From a virus, in UHGV virus genome UHGV-0102871: a stretch of 12,851 bases of DNA. One strand, 5' to 3'. Below are positions 3,885 through 6,953 of the stretch, piece after piece. The position numbers were made by a program, and so were the translations under genes. Position 1 is the first letter of the stretch. Each line of letters begins with the position of its first letter. Under the pieces are notes generated by a model. The model worked only from the letters and a program-made list of their open reading frames with translations, searched no databases and was not told where the DNA came from.

Positions 3885-4553
3885 TCATTCATTCTTTGGT
3901 ATGCCGCAAAGGGCGTTTAGCGTTTCAACGGGAATGGCAAGTGCGGTGCTGGTCGCTTCACGGCGTTCCACCTCAGGCAAATATGGCACTGCCTCAGGCC
4001 ACATCTCAGCCAGTTTTTTAACAGTTGAGACTTTGGTTAGAGCACCTTTAACCTGCAATTGGAAGGCATCAACTTCATCGTAAAGAACGTTGATGGTTAC
4101 CGTCGATTCAGTGAGTCGGTCGTGTAATTTTCCAACTTTCTTCAGCGTGCTGTAACTTTCAGGAACGAAACCCGAATCAATTACAGGCGCGAAGGAAGCT
4201 CCGAAGAACAGGTCGCTTTCAAGATCGTGCTTACCAATATGTTTTCCACGGTGGCGATAGCGATGATCCAAACCGTTCCTGGCTAATTCGTGATACTCAC
4301 CATTAATAATGACCTTTAAAGTTGCAGTTTTAGCGCCGACCTGCATCTTGATGAAGGAGTTATCTTTGAAATCTTCCCGAGCCTTAGTTATTTGCTCATC
4401 GCTAGTGTTTTCCTGCTTGAGCAATGCCTGTCGAATTTCTTCAACAATTTTCGCCCTCTCATTAACCGCAGCTTTCGCTTTCTCAAACAATGGGGATGCG
4501 AGAAGCAGGTTATGGCATAGCTGATTTTTAATTTCGTTGTTAAGACGAATCAT
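3885..4553 (-). CDS. AT-rich orphan gene (222 aa), unknown function; first gene of the leftward operon, in the sieB/ral position
   Basis: ORF-track ORF with GAGGGT Shine-Dalgarno 7 nt before ATG 4553. Visibly lower GC than flanking genes (by eye, not computed). Soluble-looking, no recognised domain. Bracketed by a ~400-bp leader upstream and an intrinsic terminator downstream. Confidence 0.75.
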   Translation of the reverse strand: MIRLNNEIKNQLCHNLLLASPLFEKAKAAVNERAKIVEEIRQALLKQENTSDEQITKAREDFKDNSFIKMQVGAKTATLKVIINGEYHELARNGLDHRYRHRGKHIGKHDLESDLFFGASFAPVIDSGFVPESYSTLKKVGKLHDRLTESTVTINVLYDEVDAFQLQVKGALTKVSTVKKLAEMWPEAVPYLPEVERREATSTALAIPVETLNALCGIPKNE

Positions 4554-4969
4554 TGACTTACCCTCTGTCGTTACCCGCTGATGCGGGAGAAATGCTTTGG
4601 CGATGTGGTAGGTGGGAGACCCATTTCGACCCGATTCGGCCTACTTATCTTCGGCAATAGCTCCTCGGGCCTCGCCGCTTTACGTGCGACATATTCCCGT
4701 CCATGAACCCTTCACCACATCCCATAACATTCCCTGTATTGGTCAGCGCCAACTCCCTGCCAGTGTTGCCCGTTCTCACGCCGTTCTCGCTCTCGCGTGG
4801 GGATACTCTCTCACCGACCGGATCGCACCCGGTGATACAGCACGTTTACGTGTAGGGGTCTTAACAGGTCATTGACGCTGTAAATCTGCATGTTGTTAAA
4901 AAGCAGGCGACTTGCTGTCCGCCGCTGGCTAACTTCGCTCAGCTGTCGATGTTTCGTTTCGATGGGGTA

Positions 4970-5048
4970 AATTTAGCGTGATGCTAAATTATGCGCAATA
5001 GCAAAATGCTAAATTGTTGAATGGTTTTATTTAGCGTATTGATTAATA
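4970..5048 (-). promoter_or_regulatory. oL-like operator cluster and probable pL region: three sites with half-site ATTTAGC-N5-GCTAAAT
   Basis: 4970-4990 is a perfect 21-bp palindrome (AATTTAGCGTGATGCTAAATT). Two degenerate copies at ~4996-5015 (AATAGCAAAATGCTAAATT) and ~5028-5048 (ATTTAGCGTATTGATTAAT). Same half-site as the cI/cro intergenic operators. Exact -35/-10 not resolved. Confidence 0.55.
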
Positions 5049-5085
5049 AGCGATTAAAAATTTACAGCGAAGGAATTCGGGACGT

Positions 5086-5109
5086 AAAAAAGCCCGCGCG
5101 ATGGCGGGC
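5086..5109 (-). terminator. Intrinsic terminator downstream of the repressor gene (minus-strand GCCCGC-CAUCGC-GCGGGC + UUUUUU)
   Basis: Plus strand reads AAAAAA-GCCCGC-GCGATG-GCGGGC, 20 nt past the cI-like stop. On the minus strand this is a 6-bp GC stem followed by a U6 tract. Confidence 0.65.
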
Positions 5110-5129
5110 TTGAGGGGTTTTGCGTGAGG

Positions 5130-5807
5130 TTATGGGATGTTTAGTATTTTGGCATCAACCACAACGCCGATGATTTTGCAGTTTCCATTAATTTCTAGCA
5201 TTGGATATGCGGGGTTAAGGGGCTTTAGGAAGCGTCTGCCGGCATCGATTACAAGCTTCTTAAAGGTCGCTTCGTTATCGCCTTCTAGCTTCGCGACAAC
5301 CAGCTTTCCGTTGCGCGGCTCGACTTCAGGATCAACAAGTATCGCTGCTCCCTCGGGTATGCTCAGTCCAGCCGGGGAGGTCATAGAATCCCCTTTAACG
5401 TCCAGCCAGAATGAATCTTCTGAGCAGTCAACAGTCGTGTCATACCAGCGATCTATCGCTCTTCGGTGATAAGGTTCTACAGCTTCCATCCATTGCCCCG
5501 CGCTTACCCAGCTGATTACAGGATAACTTCCTTTTGTCTCGTTCAGTCCTCGAAATGCAACGTTCGAAGGTTCTTCACTGGCGTGTAAAACATCCATCCA
5601 GCCAAAAGGCAGATCAAGCGCAGTTTCAATTTTGCGAGCCATCTTATCGCCGATATTGCGATGAGGGTTTGGTCCCAGTAGCTGGCTAAGCGCAGCCGGA
5701 CTTGTCTCGATGAGCTCGGCAAACTGCGCTTTGGTCATTCCAGACTCGTGCTGACGCTTCTCGTACAGCGCTTCCAGGTTGGCTTTTCTGATTTCTTTAT
5801 TTTCCAT
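5130..5807 (-). CDS. cI: cI-like prophage repressor (HTH N-domain plus LexA/S24 peptidase C-domain), 225 aa
   Basis: C-terminal domain carries the S24 Ser/Lys dyad context (DVKGDSMTSPAG ... ATFKKLV) and LexA-like strands (GAAILVDPEVEPRNGKLVVAKL; KIIGVVVDAKI). N-terminus is HTH-like. Start set at the internal ATG 5807-5805 (MENKEIRK...) just left of the operators; the ORF-track ORF extends to 5924. Confidence 0.85.
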   Translation of the reverse strand: MENKEIRKANLEALYEKRQHESGMTKAQFAELIETSPAALSQLLGPNPHRNIGDKMARKIETALDLPFGWMDVLHASEEPSNVAFRGLNETKGSYPVISWVSAGQWMEAVEPYHRRAIDRWYDTTVDCSEDSFWLDVKGDSMTSPAGLSIPEGAAILVDPEVEPRNGKLVVAKLEGDNEATFKKLVIDAGRRFLKPLNPAYPMLEINGNCKIIGVVVDAKILNIP

Positions 5808-5824
5808 ACCTGCATTGTTACTGC

Positions 5825-5893
5825 TTTTAGCAAAATGATAAATGTGCAAATTGCTAAATGATGCTTGCGTAGTATTTAGCATAACGCTAAACT
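5825..5893. promoter_or_regulatory. oR-like operator cluster with divergent pR/pRM region between cI and cro
   Basis: Sites TTTTAGCAAAATGATAAAT (5825-5843) and ATTTAGCATAACGCTAAAC (5874-5892, 13/14 palindromic) share the oL half-site. Candidate pR: -35 TTGCGT (5865-5870), 17-bp spacer, -10 TAAACT (5888-5893); the stronger operator overlaps the spacer and -10. GGAGA Shine-Dalgarno precedes the cro-like ATG at 5924. Confidence 0.55.
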
Positions 5894-5923
5894 CCAAATC
5901 AAACGACTCACCCGGAGACACCA

Positions 5924-6157
5924 ATGAGCACTGAACTACACCGCTGGCGCAAGGCCGCCACTACCGACGAATGGGCGCAGCTCGCAAAGTTGGCTAACAC
6001 GACGCCAGGTTACCTGGACCAGATCGCCTACGGAAATCGCCGGGCATCTCCAGAAATGGCATCTGCTATCGAGAAAGGCACGAAGAATTTTCACCGCCAG
6101 GCTCCGGTCCTAAAAGAAAGCCTGGTATTCGCATCGCCGCGTGATACTGCGGCCTAA
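5924..6157 (+). CDS. Cro-like HTH regulator, YdaS-family (77 aa)
   Basis: Divergent from the repressor and first gene of the rightward operon. Motif GYLDQIAYGNRRASPEMASAIEKGT matches the YdaS-type Cro-like HTH pattern as recalled (YL.Q...G.R..SPEMA.AIEK.T). Confidence 0.7.
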   Translation: MSTELHRWRKAATTDEWAQLAKLANTTPGYLDQIAYGNRRASPEMASAIEKGTKNFHRQAPVLKESLVFASPRDTAA

Positions 6158-6174
6158 CCACGAAAGGGAAAGCA

Positions 6175-6717
6175 ATGCATTCACTTGCGTATCAACACAA
6201 TACCGGAATACACCCGGGAGCGATGATAAACCGCGCTCAAGCTAAAGCGACGCCGGACCACGAAAAGATCCGCGATGCGGTCCGTGCCTGGTCATCGGCG
6301 CTGGATAATCAGGACGTGGTGTCAGCGCTGATCATCAACGAATACCGGGAGCAGGGCGGGACCGCCATCAGCTTTCCGGACGACATCAGCCGGGCGCGCC
6401 AGAAGCTGTTCCGCTTCCTGGATAACCGCTTCGACTCTGAGCAGTACCGCGAGAACGTGCGCCAGCTGACGCCCGCAATCATGGCCGTTTTGCCGCTGGA
6501 GTATCGCCATCGACTTCTTCCAGAGGACAGTTTTATGTCCCGCTTAGCTCGACTTGAGAAAGAAACGAGCGAGGCGAAAGTGGCCGTTGCGATGAACGCC
6601 CCGCGTCACCAGAAGCTCAAGGAACTCAGTGAGGGGATTGTAGAGATGTTCCGTGTCGACCCGGATCTGACCGCGCCGCTGATGGCTATGGTCACTTCGA
6701 TGTTGGGGGTTATGTGA
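6175..6717 (+). CDS. YdaT-family protein (180 aa) in the cII-equivalent position
   Basis: AGGGAAAG Shine-Dalgarno upstream. Motifs IINEYREQGG... and TPAIMAVLPLEYRHRL resemble Rac prophage YdaT-family proteins as recalled. Follows the YdaS-like gene as in Rac. Confidence 0.6.
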   Translation: MHSLAYQHNTGIHPGAMINRAQAKATPDHEKIRDAVRAWSSALDNQDVVSALIINEYREQGGTAISFPDDISRARQKLFRFLDNRFDSEQYRENVRQLTPAIMAVLPLEYRHRLLPEDSFMSRLARLEKETSEAKVAVAMNAPRHQKLKELSEGIVEMFRVDPDLTAPLMAMVTSMLGVM

Positions 6718-6953
6718 TGGGAAGTTTCAAAAATGGCGAAAGCCAGTCTGCGCGAACAGAACTGGCCTTCAGATGCAAATCGTGTGCACTCATTGCAGGA
6801 GGAATAATGGCAAAAAATCCACGCTATTACCATACCTCTGTACATAAAAACATAACCCGCGACCGCTTCATCCGCTCGGTTAACCCGATTGTGGCAGAGA
6901 AGATGCGCGCCATCCTGGAAGAACTGAAACGTAAGGAGAGTGGCCGTGGGTAA
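6717..6953 (+). CDS. Small hypothetical protein (78 aa; possibly 48 aa from ATG 6807)
   Basis: ATG 6717 overlaps the YdaT-like stop (TGATG). An in-frame ATG at 6807 has a strong AGGAGG Shine-Dalgarno. The 3' end overlaps the start of the O-like gene. No recognised homology. Confidence 0.4.
   Translation: MGSFKNGESQSARTELAFRCKSCALIAGGIMAKNPRYYHTSVHKNITRDRFIRSVNPIVAEKMRAILEELKRKESGRG

What the first reader, a model, noticed from the sequence alone, without database searches (positions are those of the whole stretch)
4970..5893. Immunity region with operators sharing one half-site (ATTTAGC-N5-GCTAAAT) on both sides of cI, and a terminator between cI and oL
The perfect 21-bp palindrome at 4970-4990 and the near-perfect site at 5874-5892 share the same half-site, giving an oL/oR-like bipartite operator set for the cI-like repressor. 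The terminator at 5086-5109 means no rexAB-like genes are co-transcribed with cI. The operator sequence defines the immunity specificity of this prophage.
Basis: seen in the sequence. Interest (0 to 1): 0.45.

Follow-up and report, generated by a model that had tools for sequence, protein, structure and literature searches.

The report
Lambdoid prophage immunity switch operators
This is the ordinary on/off switch of a lambda-like E. coli prophage: a repressor gene flanked by two clusters of three binding sites each. It is a previously uncharacterised relative of the switch of Shiga-toxin phage H-19B and is textbook in design.

Summary
The motif ATTTAGC-N5-GCTAAAT (up to 3 mismatches) occurs six times in the window, against 0.55 expected. 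All six lie in two clusters. OL is 4971-4989, 4996-5014 and 5029-5047. OR is 5825-5843, 5841-5859 and 5874-5892.

The clusters flank a 225-aa cI (5130-5807, minus strand). It has an HTH domain and a lambda-like S24 autocleavage domain with the Ala-Gly site, Ser and Lys intact. A divergent cro lies at 5924-6157.

An intrinsic terminator (5111->5090, minus strand) ends the cI transcript 43 bp before OL3. It is the analogue of lambda t_imm, and the rex slot is empty.

In 87 related loci the half-sites are about 99% conserved while DNA between the OL sites is 64% conserved. Repressors that share the C-terminal domain but carry another HTH lack the motif.

Comparison with phi80 and CobraSix bounds an exchangeable immunity module at 4971-~6148.

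The closest characterised relative is H-19B: cI HTH domain 51% identical, Cro 61%, same site layout, half-site ATTTATC.

Comparative data support pR (TTGCGT/TAAACT), pL (TTGCGC/TAAATT) and a leaderless pRM.

Verdict: a new member of a known kind, of low interest. No binding was tested.

The parts
4971..4989 (.). OL1, ATTTAGC-GTGAT-GCTAAAT (0 mismatches). It covers the -10 and spacer of pL.
   Evidence: A perfect site lies just beyond cI in 83 of the 87 related loci scanned; in 2 of these it sits beyond inserted cargo. The other 4 loci show no perfect site, one being a short locus. Half-site columns are invariant and the spacer is variable.
4996..5014 (.). OL2, CAATAGC-AAAAT-GCTAAAT (3 mismatches), 25 bp centre-to-centre from OL1. 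Its weak half (GCTATTG on the minus strand) supplies the TTG of the pL -35.
   Evidence: H-19B has the identical CAATAGC-AAAAT half at the same spacing.
5029..5047 (.). OL3, ATTTAGC-GTATT-GATTAAT (2 mismatches), 33 bp from OL2. It is the least conserved of the six sites.
   Evidence: (it falls below the 3-mismatch threshold in about a dozen relatives).
4970..4998 (-). Candidate pL: -35 TTGCGC (4998->4993), 17-bp spacer, -10 TAAATT (4975->4970). Transcription runs leftward into the phi80-type leader.
   Evidence: Read from the sequence. Its position matches the annotated phi80 pL, whose -10 lies on the first bases of OL1. TTG and TAAATT are conserved in L005-L008 and Chronis, and H-19B has TTGCCA-17-TAAAGT. 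This is an inference; the consensus scan did not call it.
5084..5111 (-). Intrinsic terminator of the cI transcript (analogue of lambda t_imm): AAGCCCGC-CATCGC-GCGGGCTT followed by TTTTTT.
   Evidence: Relatives keep a hairpin plus T-run at this place with different stem and loop sequences, for example Chronis ACCCGC/GCGGGT.
5130..5807 (-). cI repressor, 225 aa: N-terminal HTH_3 domain plus a lambda-like Peptidase_S24 domain. The Ala-Gly site (SAGQW), Ser (GDSM) and Lys (FKKL) are conserved.
   Evidence: The start at 5807 is supported by H-19B cI and by L024/L027, whose ORFs cannot extend upstream.
5814..5842 (-). Candidate pRM: -35 TTTATC (5842->5837), 17-bp spacer, -10 AACAAT (5819->5814). 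The start would be at or next to the cI ATG, giving a leaderless mRNA as in lambda.
   Evidence: An nAnnAT hexamer at -12..-7 of the ATG is kept in all 17 sequence variants, H-19B included, while neighbouring bases vary. No SD-like sequence is conserved at usable spacing. This is an inference.
5825..5843 (.). OR3, TTTTAGC-AAAAT-GATAAAT (2 mismatches). Its centre is at -27 of the inferred pRM start and it overlaps the pRM -35 and spacer.
   Evidence: It is nearly identical to H-19B OR3, ATTTAGC-AAATG-GATAAAT.
5841..5859 (.). OR2, AATGTGC-AAATT-GCTAAAT (3 mismatches). Its centre is at -43 of the inferred pRM start. It shares 3 bp with OR3, the two centres being 16 bp apart.
   Evidence: The strong half is invariant, and the weak half varies at 2 positions. 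The same overlap is present in L024, L027, Chronis and H-19B.
5874..5892 (.). OR1, ATTTAGC-ATAAC-GCTAAAC (1 mismatch), 33 bp from OR2. It covers the -10 and spacer of pR.
   Evidence: It lies at -85 in all 87 loci and is almost fully conserved.
5865..5893 (+). Candidate pR: -35 TTGCGT (5865-5870), 17-bp spacer, -10 TAAACT (5888-5893). The cro SD GGAG is at 5914-5917.
   Evidence: CAAG (= cTTG) is the only invariant stretch in the 14-bp OR1-OR2 gap. The -35 variants are TTGCGT, TTGATT, TTGCTT, TTGTGT, TTGCGC and TTGCGG. This is an inference; the match is 7 of 12 to consensus and the scan did not call it.
5924..6157 (+). Cro-like lytic repressor, 77 aa, HTH. It is 61% identical to H-19B Cro, with an identical GYLDQIAYG helix.
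4971..6148 (.). Exchangeable immunity module: OL, terminator, cI, OR and cro.
   Evidence: Identity to phi80 (98.8-99.5%) stops at 4970 and resumes at 6149. Identity to CobraSix stops at 4971 and resumes at 6146.
4554..4969 (-). pL leader shared with phi80. It contains the sequences annotated in phi80 as nutL boxA (4905->4897, TGCTTTTTA) and nutL core (4852->4841, CACGTAAACGTG).

Best explanation
The region is the immunity (lysis/lysogeny) switch of a lambdoid E. coli prophage.

Dimers of the cI repressor (HTH domain plus lambda-type S24 domain) would bind 19-bp operators with consensus ATTTAGC-N5-GCTAAAT. There are three operators left of cI (OL1-3) and three between cI and cro (OR1-3).

Occupation of OL1 and OR1 covers the -10 and spacer of the early promoters pL (TTGCGC-17-TAAATT, leftward) and pR (TTGCGT-17-TAAACT, rightward), which silences the lytic genes.

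cI itself is made from a weak promoter, pRM (TTTATC-17-AACAAT), that starts at or next to its ATG. OR2 is centred near -43, where lambda cI activates. OR3 lies over the -35 and spacer, where it would shut pRM off at high repressor concentration.

The cI transcript stops at an intrinsic terminator 19 bp after the stop codon. Lysogenic transcription therefore cannot read through OL into the pL operon, and no rex-like cargo is co-transcribed.

RecA-stimulated self-cleavage at Ala-Gly would induce the prophage. Cro, encoded in the same module, would bind the same sites.

Shown here: the site count and its statistics, conservation, the protein families, the terminator fold and the module boundaries. 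Inferred: binding, promoter positions, activation and repression logic, looping and SOS induction.
For: - Six motif sites were found against 0.55 expected, 0 of 200 shuffles reached six, and all six lie in the two clusters.
- cI matches Peptidase_S24 (1.9e-29) and HTH_3. Full-length lambda repressor 3bdn matches at E 5e-32, with Ala-Gly, Ser and Lys aligned.
- Cro is an HTH protein, followed by a phi80-type cII, O-like and DnaB genes on the right and Gam, Bet and Exo genes on the left.
- All 87 relatives have OR sites at -85, -52 and -36 from the cI ATG, and OL spacings of 25 and 33 bp are kept in most.
- Half-site columns are 98.6-98.7% conserved (68 of 81 invariant). DNA between sites is 64% conserved in OL and 86% in OR.
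- The layout is kept at 53-54% cI identity (L024, L027) and in H-19B.
- 29 loci with the same C-terminal domain but other HTH domains lack the motif and carry other palindromes.
- Module junctions lie at 4970/4971 and 6146-6149 in two independent comparisons.
- The terminator is confirmed.
- The promoter hexamers are conserved.
Against: - No binding, transcript-start or induction data exist for this repressor.
- The generic sigma-70 scan called no promoter in 4400-6300. pR and pL match consensus at only 7 of 12 positions.
- OR2 and OR3 overlap by 3 bp, with centres 16 bp apart. Simultaneous occupancy as in lambda is therefore doubtful, and OR2's inner half is poor (4 of 7).
- OL3 falls below the 3-mismatch threshold in about a dozen relatives.
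- H-19B is reported to have four OR sites (PMC8065619, citing Shi and Friedman 2001). At the equivalent position the window has none, with 8 of 14 mismatches. The logic may therefore differ between relatives.
Confidence: 0.88

Rival explanations
1. The switch is bipartite: only the two best palindromes (4971-4989 and 5874-5892) are functional operators, and the four weaker matches are A+T-rich remnants without function.
For: The four extra sites carry 2-3 mismatches. OR2's inner half is weak and variable, and OL3 is lost in some relatives. 933W is reported to have only two sites in OL (PMC8065619).
Against: All sites with at most 3 mismatches in 12.8 kb fall in the two clusters. The weaker sites keep position and half-site sequence in relatives down to 53% cI identity and in H-19B, while the surrounding DNA diverges.
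Confidence: 0.07
2. The layout works differently from lambda. Because OR2 and OR3 overlap (centres 16 bp apart), they are alternative, mutually exclusive positions for one dimer. Autoregulation of cI would then arise from competition between an activating and a repressing register, not from sequential filling with pairwise cooperativity.
For: The 3-bp overlap and 16-bp offset are conserved from this group to H-19B. OR1-OR2 are 33 bp apart, not lambda's 24. phi80 also has 33 bp between OR1 and OR2. H-19B has a further candidate site in the same 16-17-bp register (my reading).
Against: This is purely geometric reasoning. If only the inner TTAGC-N5-GCTAA bases are contacted, the two sites do not overlap. 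No data exist on occupancy.
Confidence: 0.3
3. The palindromes are primarily Cro (or host-factor) sites, and cI recognises something else.
For: Cro's putative recognition helix GYLDQIAYG is identical in this prophage and in H-19B, and both operator sets share ATTTA.
Against: The motif tracks the cI N-terminal domain: it is absent when the same C-terminal domain carries another HTH. No other repeated palindrome is present in OL or OR. OL has no adjacent cro. In all studied lambdoid phages cI and Cro share operators (established knowledge).
Confidence: 0.03

Closest known systems
Immunity region of Stx1 phage H-19B (cI, cro, OL, OR; Neely and Friedman 1998; Shi and Friedman 2001, neither paper readable here)
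   Same: - The DNA-binding modules are homologous: the cI N-terminal domain is 51% identical and Cro is 61% identical, both Cro proteins being 77 aa.
- The operator length (7-N5-7) and layout are the same. OL1-OL2 are 25 bp apart, there is a 14-bp OR1-OR2 gap, and OR2 and OR3 overlap.
- The promoter hexamer positions are the same.
- OL2's left half and spacer are identical, and OR3 is nearly identical.
   Different: - The H-19B half-site is ATTTATC, here ATTTAGC (G for T at position 6) in most half-sites of OL1, OL2, OR1 and OR2.
- The putative cI recognition helix reads SPAALSQLL against SPSQLTQVS.
- The C-terminal domain of H-19B cI is not lambda-like.
- H-19B has about 1.7 kb of cargo between cI and OL, and a reported fourth OR site (PMC8065619) that has no counterpart here.
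Bacteriophage lambda immunity region (OL1-3, OR1-3, pRM/pR/pL, t_imm, cI-rexAB)
   Same: - The cI is homologous over its full length (E 5e-32), with the cleavage and catalytic residues conserved.
- Three operators lie on each side and cro is divergent.
- O1 sites lie over the early promoters.
- cI mRNA is inferred to be leaderless, with OR2 near -43.
- A terminator lies before OL.
   Different: - The operators are 19 bp with a different sequence, against 17 bp in lambda (TATCACCGCCAGTGGTA type, from memory).
- Spacings are 16 and 33 bp in OR, against 23-24 bp in lambda.
- There are no rexAB genes.
- The OL-OR distance is about 0.9 kb, against 2.3 kb.
- The cII is of the phi80/YdaT type.
Phage phi80 immunity region
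   Same: - The flanks are the same DNA: the pL leader with nutL is 98.8-99.5% identical up to the first base of OL1, and identity resumes at the end of cro.
- OR1-OR2 are 33 bp apart, the pL -10 lies on OL1, and the cII family is the same.
   Different: - Operators, cI and cro are unrelated in sequence (phi80 sites are of the ACATCATGTGGATTT type).
- phi80 carries gene 40A between cI and OL.
Klebsiella phages KO-TP1 and vB_Kpn_Chronis
   Same: Both carry the same six operators and homologous cI and cro. The KO-TP1 region is 88% identical in DNA, and the Chronis cI N-terminal domain is 73% identical. They probably belong to the same immunity group.
   Different: They have different hosts and flanking genes. 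Neither record annotates operators, and I found no experimental work on them.

Membership tests
Lambdoid phage immunity region (cI / operators / cro switch) | Divergently transcribed repressor and cro genes separated by a short intergenic region that holds several copies of one palindromic operator | tested here: met
   cI is at 5130-5807 (-) and cro at 5924-6157 (+). Three motif copies lie in the 116-bp gap between them.
Lambdoid phage immunity region (cI / operators / cro switch) | A second operator cluster (OL) beyond the repressor gene, at the head of the leftward early operon | tested here: met
   Three sites lie at 4971-5047. Next to them is the phi80 pL leader and a leftward operon that includes Gam, Bet and Exo genes.
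Lambdoid phage immunity region (cI / operators / cro switch) | Operators, repressor and cro are exchanged together as one module between otherwise similar phages | tested here: met
   Junctions with phi80 and CobraSix lie at 4970/4971 and 6146-6149.
Lambdoid phage immunity region (cI / operators / cro switch) | The repressor and Cro bind the operators and repress pL and pR | not testable with these tools
   Only comparative support is available: conservation, and tracking with the HTH domain.
LexA/lambda-cI type self-cleaving repressors (Peptidase S24) | N-terminal HTH plus a C-terminal S24 domain with an Ala-Gly cleavage site and a Ser/Lys dyad | tested here: met
   PF00717 matches at 1.9e-29 and PF01381 at 8.8e-05. 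The alignment to 3bdn shows SAGQW against QAGMF, GDSM against GNSM, and FKKL against FKKL.
LexA/lambda-cI type self-cleaving repressors (Peptidase S24) | RecA-stimulated autocleavage and SOS induction | not testable with these tools
   Inferred from the conserved residues only.
H-19B immunity group (same specificity as H-19B cI) | Near-identical DNA-binding domain and the same operator half-site (ATTTATC) | tested here: not met
   The N-terminal domain is 51% identical. 10 of the 12 half-sites have G at position 6, where the H-19B consensus has T. The region is homologous but probably of a different specificity. Cross-immunity was not tested.
phi80 immunity group | phi80 cI and its operators | tested here: not met
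   There is no DNA similarity between 4971 and 6148, and the phi80 operator sequences differ.
Intrinsic (rho-independent) terminator | G+C-rich hairpin directly followed by a U-run on the transcribed strand | tested here: met
   The stem has 8 bp with 6 G-C pairs and is followed by UUUUUU. Folding energy is -15.3 kcal/mol, z -3.6, and it is on the cI strand. Termination itself was not measured.

The most novel reading that the evidence does not exclude
This immunity region may be a natural specificity variant of the H-19B switch.

- The operators that sit over or next to pL and pR (OL1, OL2, OR1, OR2) have changed one base pair per half-site (T to G at position 6), together with the cI recognition helix.
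- OR3 stayed a hybrid site, with one half of each type.
- The Cro recognition helix stayed identical.

If this is right, cI would be hetero-immune while Cro (and OR3) would cross-react between this common commensal/UPEC prophage and Stx1 phages. That would give one-way regulatory cross-talk. It would also offer a compact natural system for studying how new immunity specificities arise. In addition, the conserved 16-bp OR2/OR3 overlap could mean an either/or register switch at pRM in place of lambda-style sequential filling.
Probability: 0.25. Interest if true: 0.4.

Novelty: new member of a known kind. Interest (0 to 1): 0.2.

Why it matters
It gives a precise map (operators, promoters, terminator, module borders) for an immunity type found in about 0.5% of complete E. 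coli genomes. The same type occurs in Enterobacter, Citrobacter, Klebsiella, Atlantibacter and Phytobacter prophages. The map is useful for annotating prophages, predicting superinfection immunity groups and supplying orthogonal repressor/operator parts. It also corrects the annotated cI start.

Its kinship with the H-19B (Stx1 phage) switch raises a testable question about cross-immunity. Conceptually it adds nothing new to the lambda paradigm.

Tried and rejected
- The generic promoter scan of 4400-6300 called no site. The promoters were therefore placed by homology and conservation instead.
- My first guess for pRM was -10 TATCAT (5841->5836) with a 22-nt leader and GCAGG as the SD. I dropped it because it has no usable -35, the 'SD' is only 2 nt from the ATG and is not conserved, and it would put OR2 over the core promoter. 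The nAnnAT at -12..-7 is the conserved element.
- I looked for a fourth OR site like the one reported for H-19B. The equivalent window positions have 8-10 mismatches of 14.
- I searched for a nutR copy of the phi80 boxA and boxB sequences in the window and found none beyond nutL.
- Rfam found no known RNA family in the window.
- A literature search for the half-site gave only unrelated primers. Shi and Friedman 2001 and Tyler et al. 2004 are not held.
- A second viral-contig scan, with an alignment of N-terminal domains, returned the same close relatives and added nothing.
- I considered the longer 250/264-aa cI ORF. I rejected it because the extension is a translation of the operator DNA and is impossible in L024 and L027.
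Full report
**What is in the sequence**

- 4970-4990 reads AATTTAGC-GTGAT-GCTAAATT: perfect 8-bp arms around a 5-bp spacer that is not itself palindromic.
- 5874-5892 reads ATTTAGC-ATAAC-GCTAAAC.

Searching ATTTAGC-N5-GCTAAAT with up to three mismatches gives six matches, not two.

| Site | Coordinates | Mismatches |
|---|---|---|
| OL1 | 4971-4989 | 0 |
| OL2 | 4996-5014 | 3 |
| OL3 | 5029-5047 | 2 |
| OR3 | 5825-5843 | 2 |
| OR2 | 5841-5859 | 3 |
| OR1 | 5874-5892 | 1 |

The chance expectation is 0.55, and none of 200 dinucleotide shuffles reached six. Every match with at most three mismatches in the 12.8-kb window lies in these two clusters. The four 4-mismatch matches are scattered elsewhere.

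The 12 half-sites give a strong 7-base consensus: A9 T10 T11 T10 A11 G10 C12 (counts out of 12). The spacers are A+T-rich.

**The genes around the sites**

- **cI.** The ORF between the clusters (5130-5807, minus strand, 225 aa) matches Peptidase_S24 (1.9e-29) and HTH_3. It aligns over nearly its whole length with lambda repressor (PDB 3bdn, E 5e-32). The Ala-Gly cleavage site (SAGQW against QAGMF), the catalytic Ser (GDSM) and the Lys (FKKL) are all conserved.
- **cro and the rightward genes.** Divergent from cI is a 77-aa HTH protein (5924-6157). It is followed by a phi80-type cII of the YdaT family (6175-6717), an O-like initiator and a DnaB helicase.
- **The leftward genes.** These include Gam-like, Bet/RecT and exonuclease genes.
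- **YdaT as cII.** YdaT-family proteins have been shown experimentally to act as cII analogues in another lambdoid immunity region (PMC8630535).
- **Origin.** The window is an E. coli prophage. The immunity region is 99.8-100% identical in many E. coli chromosomes, and 27 of 5426 complete genomes carry at least 80% of it.

**The terminator**

The hairpin AAGCCCGC-CATCGC-GCGGGCTT followed by TTTTTT reads on the minus strand (5111->5090), the strand of cI. It folds at -15.3 kcal/mol, z = -3.6.
- It starts 19 bp after the cI stop codon and its T-run ends 37 bp before OL3.
- It would end the lysogenic cI transcript before that transcript could run through OL into the pL operon. This is the role of t_imm in lambda.
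- The 82-bp gap between cI and OL3 has no room for rex-like genes.
- In relatives the same slot holds cargo: a 137-aa lipoprotein in L076 and L107, gene 40A in phi80, and about 1.7 kb in H-19B.

**Comparative evidence that the sites are operators of this repressor**

I compared 87 loci that encode cI proteins 81-100% identical. They come from Enterobacter, Citrobacter, Atlantibacter and Phytobacter genomes and from IMG/VR viral contigs.
- All 87 have the three OR sites at -85, -52 and -36 from the cI ATG.
- Nearly all have OL1 as a perfect site, with OL2 25 bp away and usually OL3 33 bp further on.

Conservation by column type:

| Region | Distinct variants | Half-site columns | Spacer columns | Between sites | Flanks |
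|---|---|---|---|---|---|
| OL | 66 | 98.6% (33/42 invariant) | 91% | 64% (0/20 invariant) | 77% |
| OR | 38 | 98.7% (35/39 invariant) | 96% | 86% | 81% |

In the OR1-OR2 gap the only invariant bases are CAAG, which is the TTG of the pR -35 read on the other strand.

The layout survives at 53-54% cI identity (Biostraticola L024, Pantoea L027) and in Klebsiella phages KO-TP1 and Chronis.

Conversely, 29 loci have a repressor with the same lambda-like C-terminal domain but a different HTH domain. None has a cluster of this motif; only two isolated 2-mismatch matches occur among them. They carry other palindromes; L017, for example, has the P22-type ATTTAAG-N4-CTTAAAT. The motif therefore goes with the N-terminal domain.

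**Module borders**

Identity to phi80 (98.8-99.5%) runs from 4549 to 4970 and stops at the first base of OL1. It resumes at 6149, in the last codons of cro. Identity to Enterobacter phage CobraSix stops at 4971 and resumes at 6146. Positions 4971 to about 6148 (OL, terminator, cI, OR, cro) are thus a classical exchangeable immunity region.

**Promoters (inferred)**

- **pR.** The TTG is invariant and the next three bases vary among relatives. H-19B has TTGCGG-17-TAAAGT at the same place.
- **pL.** TTGCGC (4998->4993), 17-bp spacer, TAAATT (4975->4970). This matches the annotated phi80 pL, whose -10 lies on the first bases of OL1. The TTG comes from the weak half of OL2 (GCTATTG), which explains that half's departure from consensus.
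- **pRM.** A hexamer of the form nAnnAT sits at -12..-7 of the cI ATG in all 17 sequence variants, H-19B included. The variants are AACAAT, GAAAAT, AAAAAT, GAGAAT, GATTAT, CAGTAT, GACAAT, GATCAT and GAGACT. The bases around it vary, and no SD is conserved at usable spacing.

This points to a leaderless cI mRNA, as in lambda and as shown for paaR2 (PMC8630535). On that reading OR2 is centred at -43, OR3 at -27 and OR1 at -76. This mirrors lambda, where cI at OR2 activates pRM and cI at OR3 represses it (established knowledge, positions from memory).

Caveat: the generic promoter scan called none of these sites. pR and pL match consensus at only 7 of 12 positions.

**Closest characterised relative**

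The cI N-terminal domain is 51% identical to that of Stx1 phage H-19B, and Cro is 61% identical. The H-19B operator regions are visibly homologous:
- OL: CTTTATC-GGAAT-GATAAAT, 6 bp, CAATAGC-AAAAT-GATAAAT.
- OR: the same 14-bp OR1-OR2 gap and the same overlapping OR2/OR3.

The H-19B half-site is ATTTATC where this group has ATTTAGC. OR3 is a hybrid in both, with one half of each type. The putative Cro recognition helix, GYLDQIAYG, is identical in the two. The cI helix differs (SPAALSQLL against SPSQLTQVS).

H-19B is reported to have four sites in OR (PMC8065619, citing Shi and Friedman 2001, which I could not read). A candidate fourth site in H-19B lies between OR1 and OR2 in a 16-17-bp register. 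At that position the window has no match.

The C-terminal domains differ: lambda-like here, not lambda-like in H-19B. The repressor is therefore itself a domain mosaic.

**Differences from lambda**

- OR2 and OR3 share 3 bp, with centres 16 bp apart.
- OR1 and OR2 are 33 bp apart, as in phi80.

Lambda-style pairwise cooperativity between adjacent dimers may therefore not apply unchanged. I rate a mutually exclusive OR2/OR3 reading at about 0.3. OL and OR are about 0.9 kb apart. Looping through the lambda-like C-terminal domain is plausible but untested.

**Verdict**

The finding is a correct recognition of a textbook element, undercounted at two of six operators. It is a new, uncharacterised member of a known kind: a lambdoid immunity region of the H-19B operator family carrying a lambda-type cleavage domain. 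Interest is low. The only mildly novel angle is the possible cross-talk with H-19B and the evolution of its specificity.

Noticed in passing
window 3885-4553 (-) and leader 4554-4969: A 222-aa Nmad5-family gene (PF18757, E 6e-31) starts at the very ATG where phi80 gene N starts. The 410-nt upstream leader, with the sequences phi80 annotates as nutL boxA and core, is 98.8-99.5% identical to phi80. No N-like gene or nutR copy is in the window. Among 87 loci with the same immunity, 8 have phi80 N, 6 have Nmad5 and the rest have something else. How leftward antitermination works without N, or whether nutL is a relic, is open.
   Followed up: partly
window 5807 vs 5882 (cI start): RefSeq/PGAP (E. 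coli UPEC85) and the KO-TP1 record annotate the repressor as 250 aa, starting at the ATG inside OR1. The homologues L024 and L027 cannot extend upstream, and H-19B cI starts at MENKD. The true start is therefore 5807 (225 aa), and the extra 25 codons are translated operator DNA.
   Followed up: yes
L076 and L107 (between cI and OL); L001 3295-4161; L131 ~700-2070: The cI-OL gap is a variable cargo slot. It is empty in the window, holds a 137-aa lipoprotein with a lipobox in two relatives, holds gene 40A in phi80, and holds about 1.7 kb in H-19B.
   Followed up: partly
L009-L039 (genome contigs): The same lambda-like S24 C-terminal domain (64-68% identical) is fused to at least five unrelated N-terminal HTH domains in Pantoea, Enterobacter, Citrobacter, Phytobacter, Erwinia and Edwardsiella prophages. 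Each has its own operator palindromes, which is a clear case of domain shuffling in phage repressors.
   Followed up: partly
window 4906-4923 (-): A terminator-like hairpin, GGCGGACAGCAAGTCGCC, runs straight into TGCTTTTTAA, the sequence phi80 annotates as nutL boxA. It lies about 40 nt into the pL transcript. It could attenuate pL transcription unless antiterminated.
   Followed up: no
window 6714-6953 (+): A 79-aa ORF between cII and the O-like gene matches phrog_1913, labelled 'tail protein', and weakly matches DUF2740. In this position the label is almost certainly a mis-annotation. CobraSix carries the same label on its gp55.
   Followed up: no
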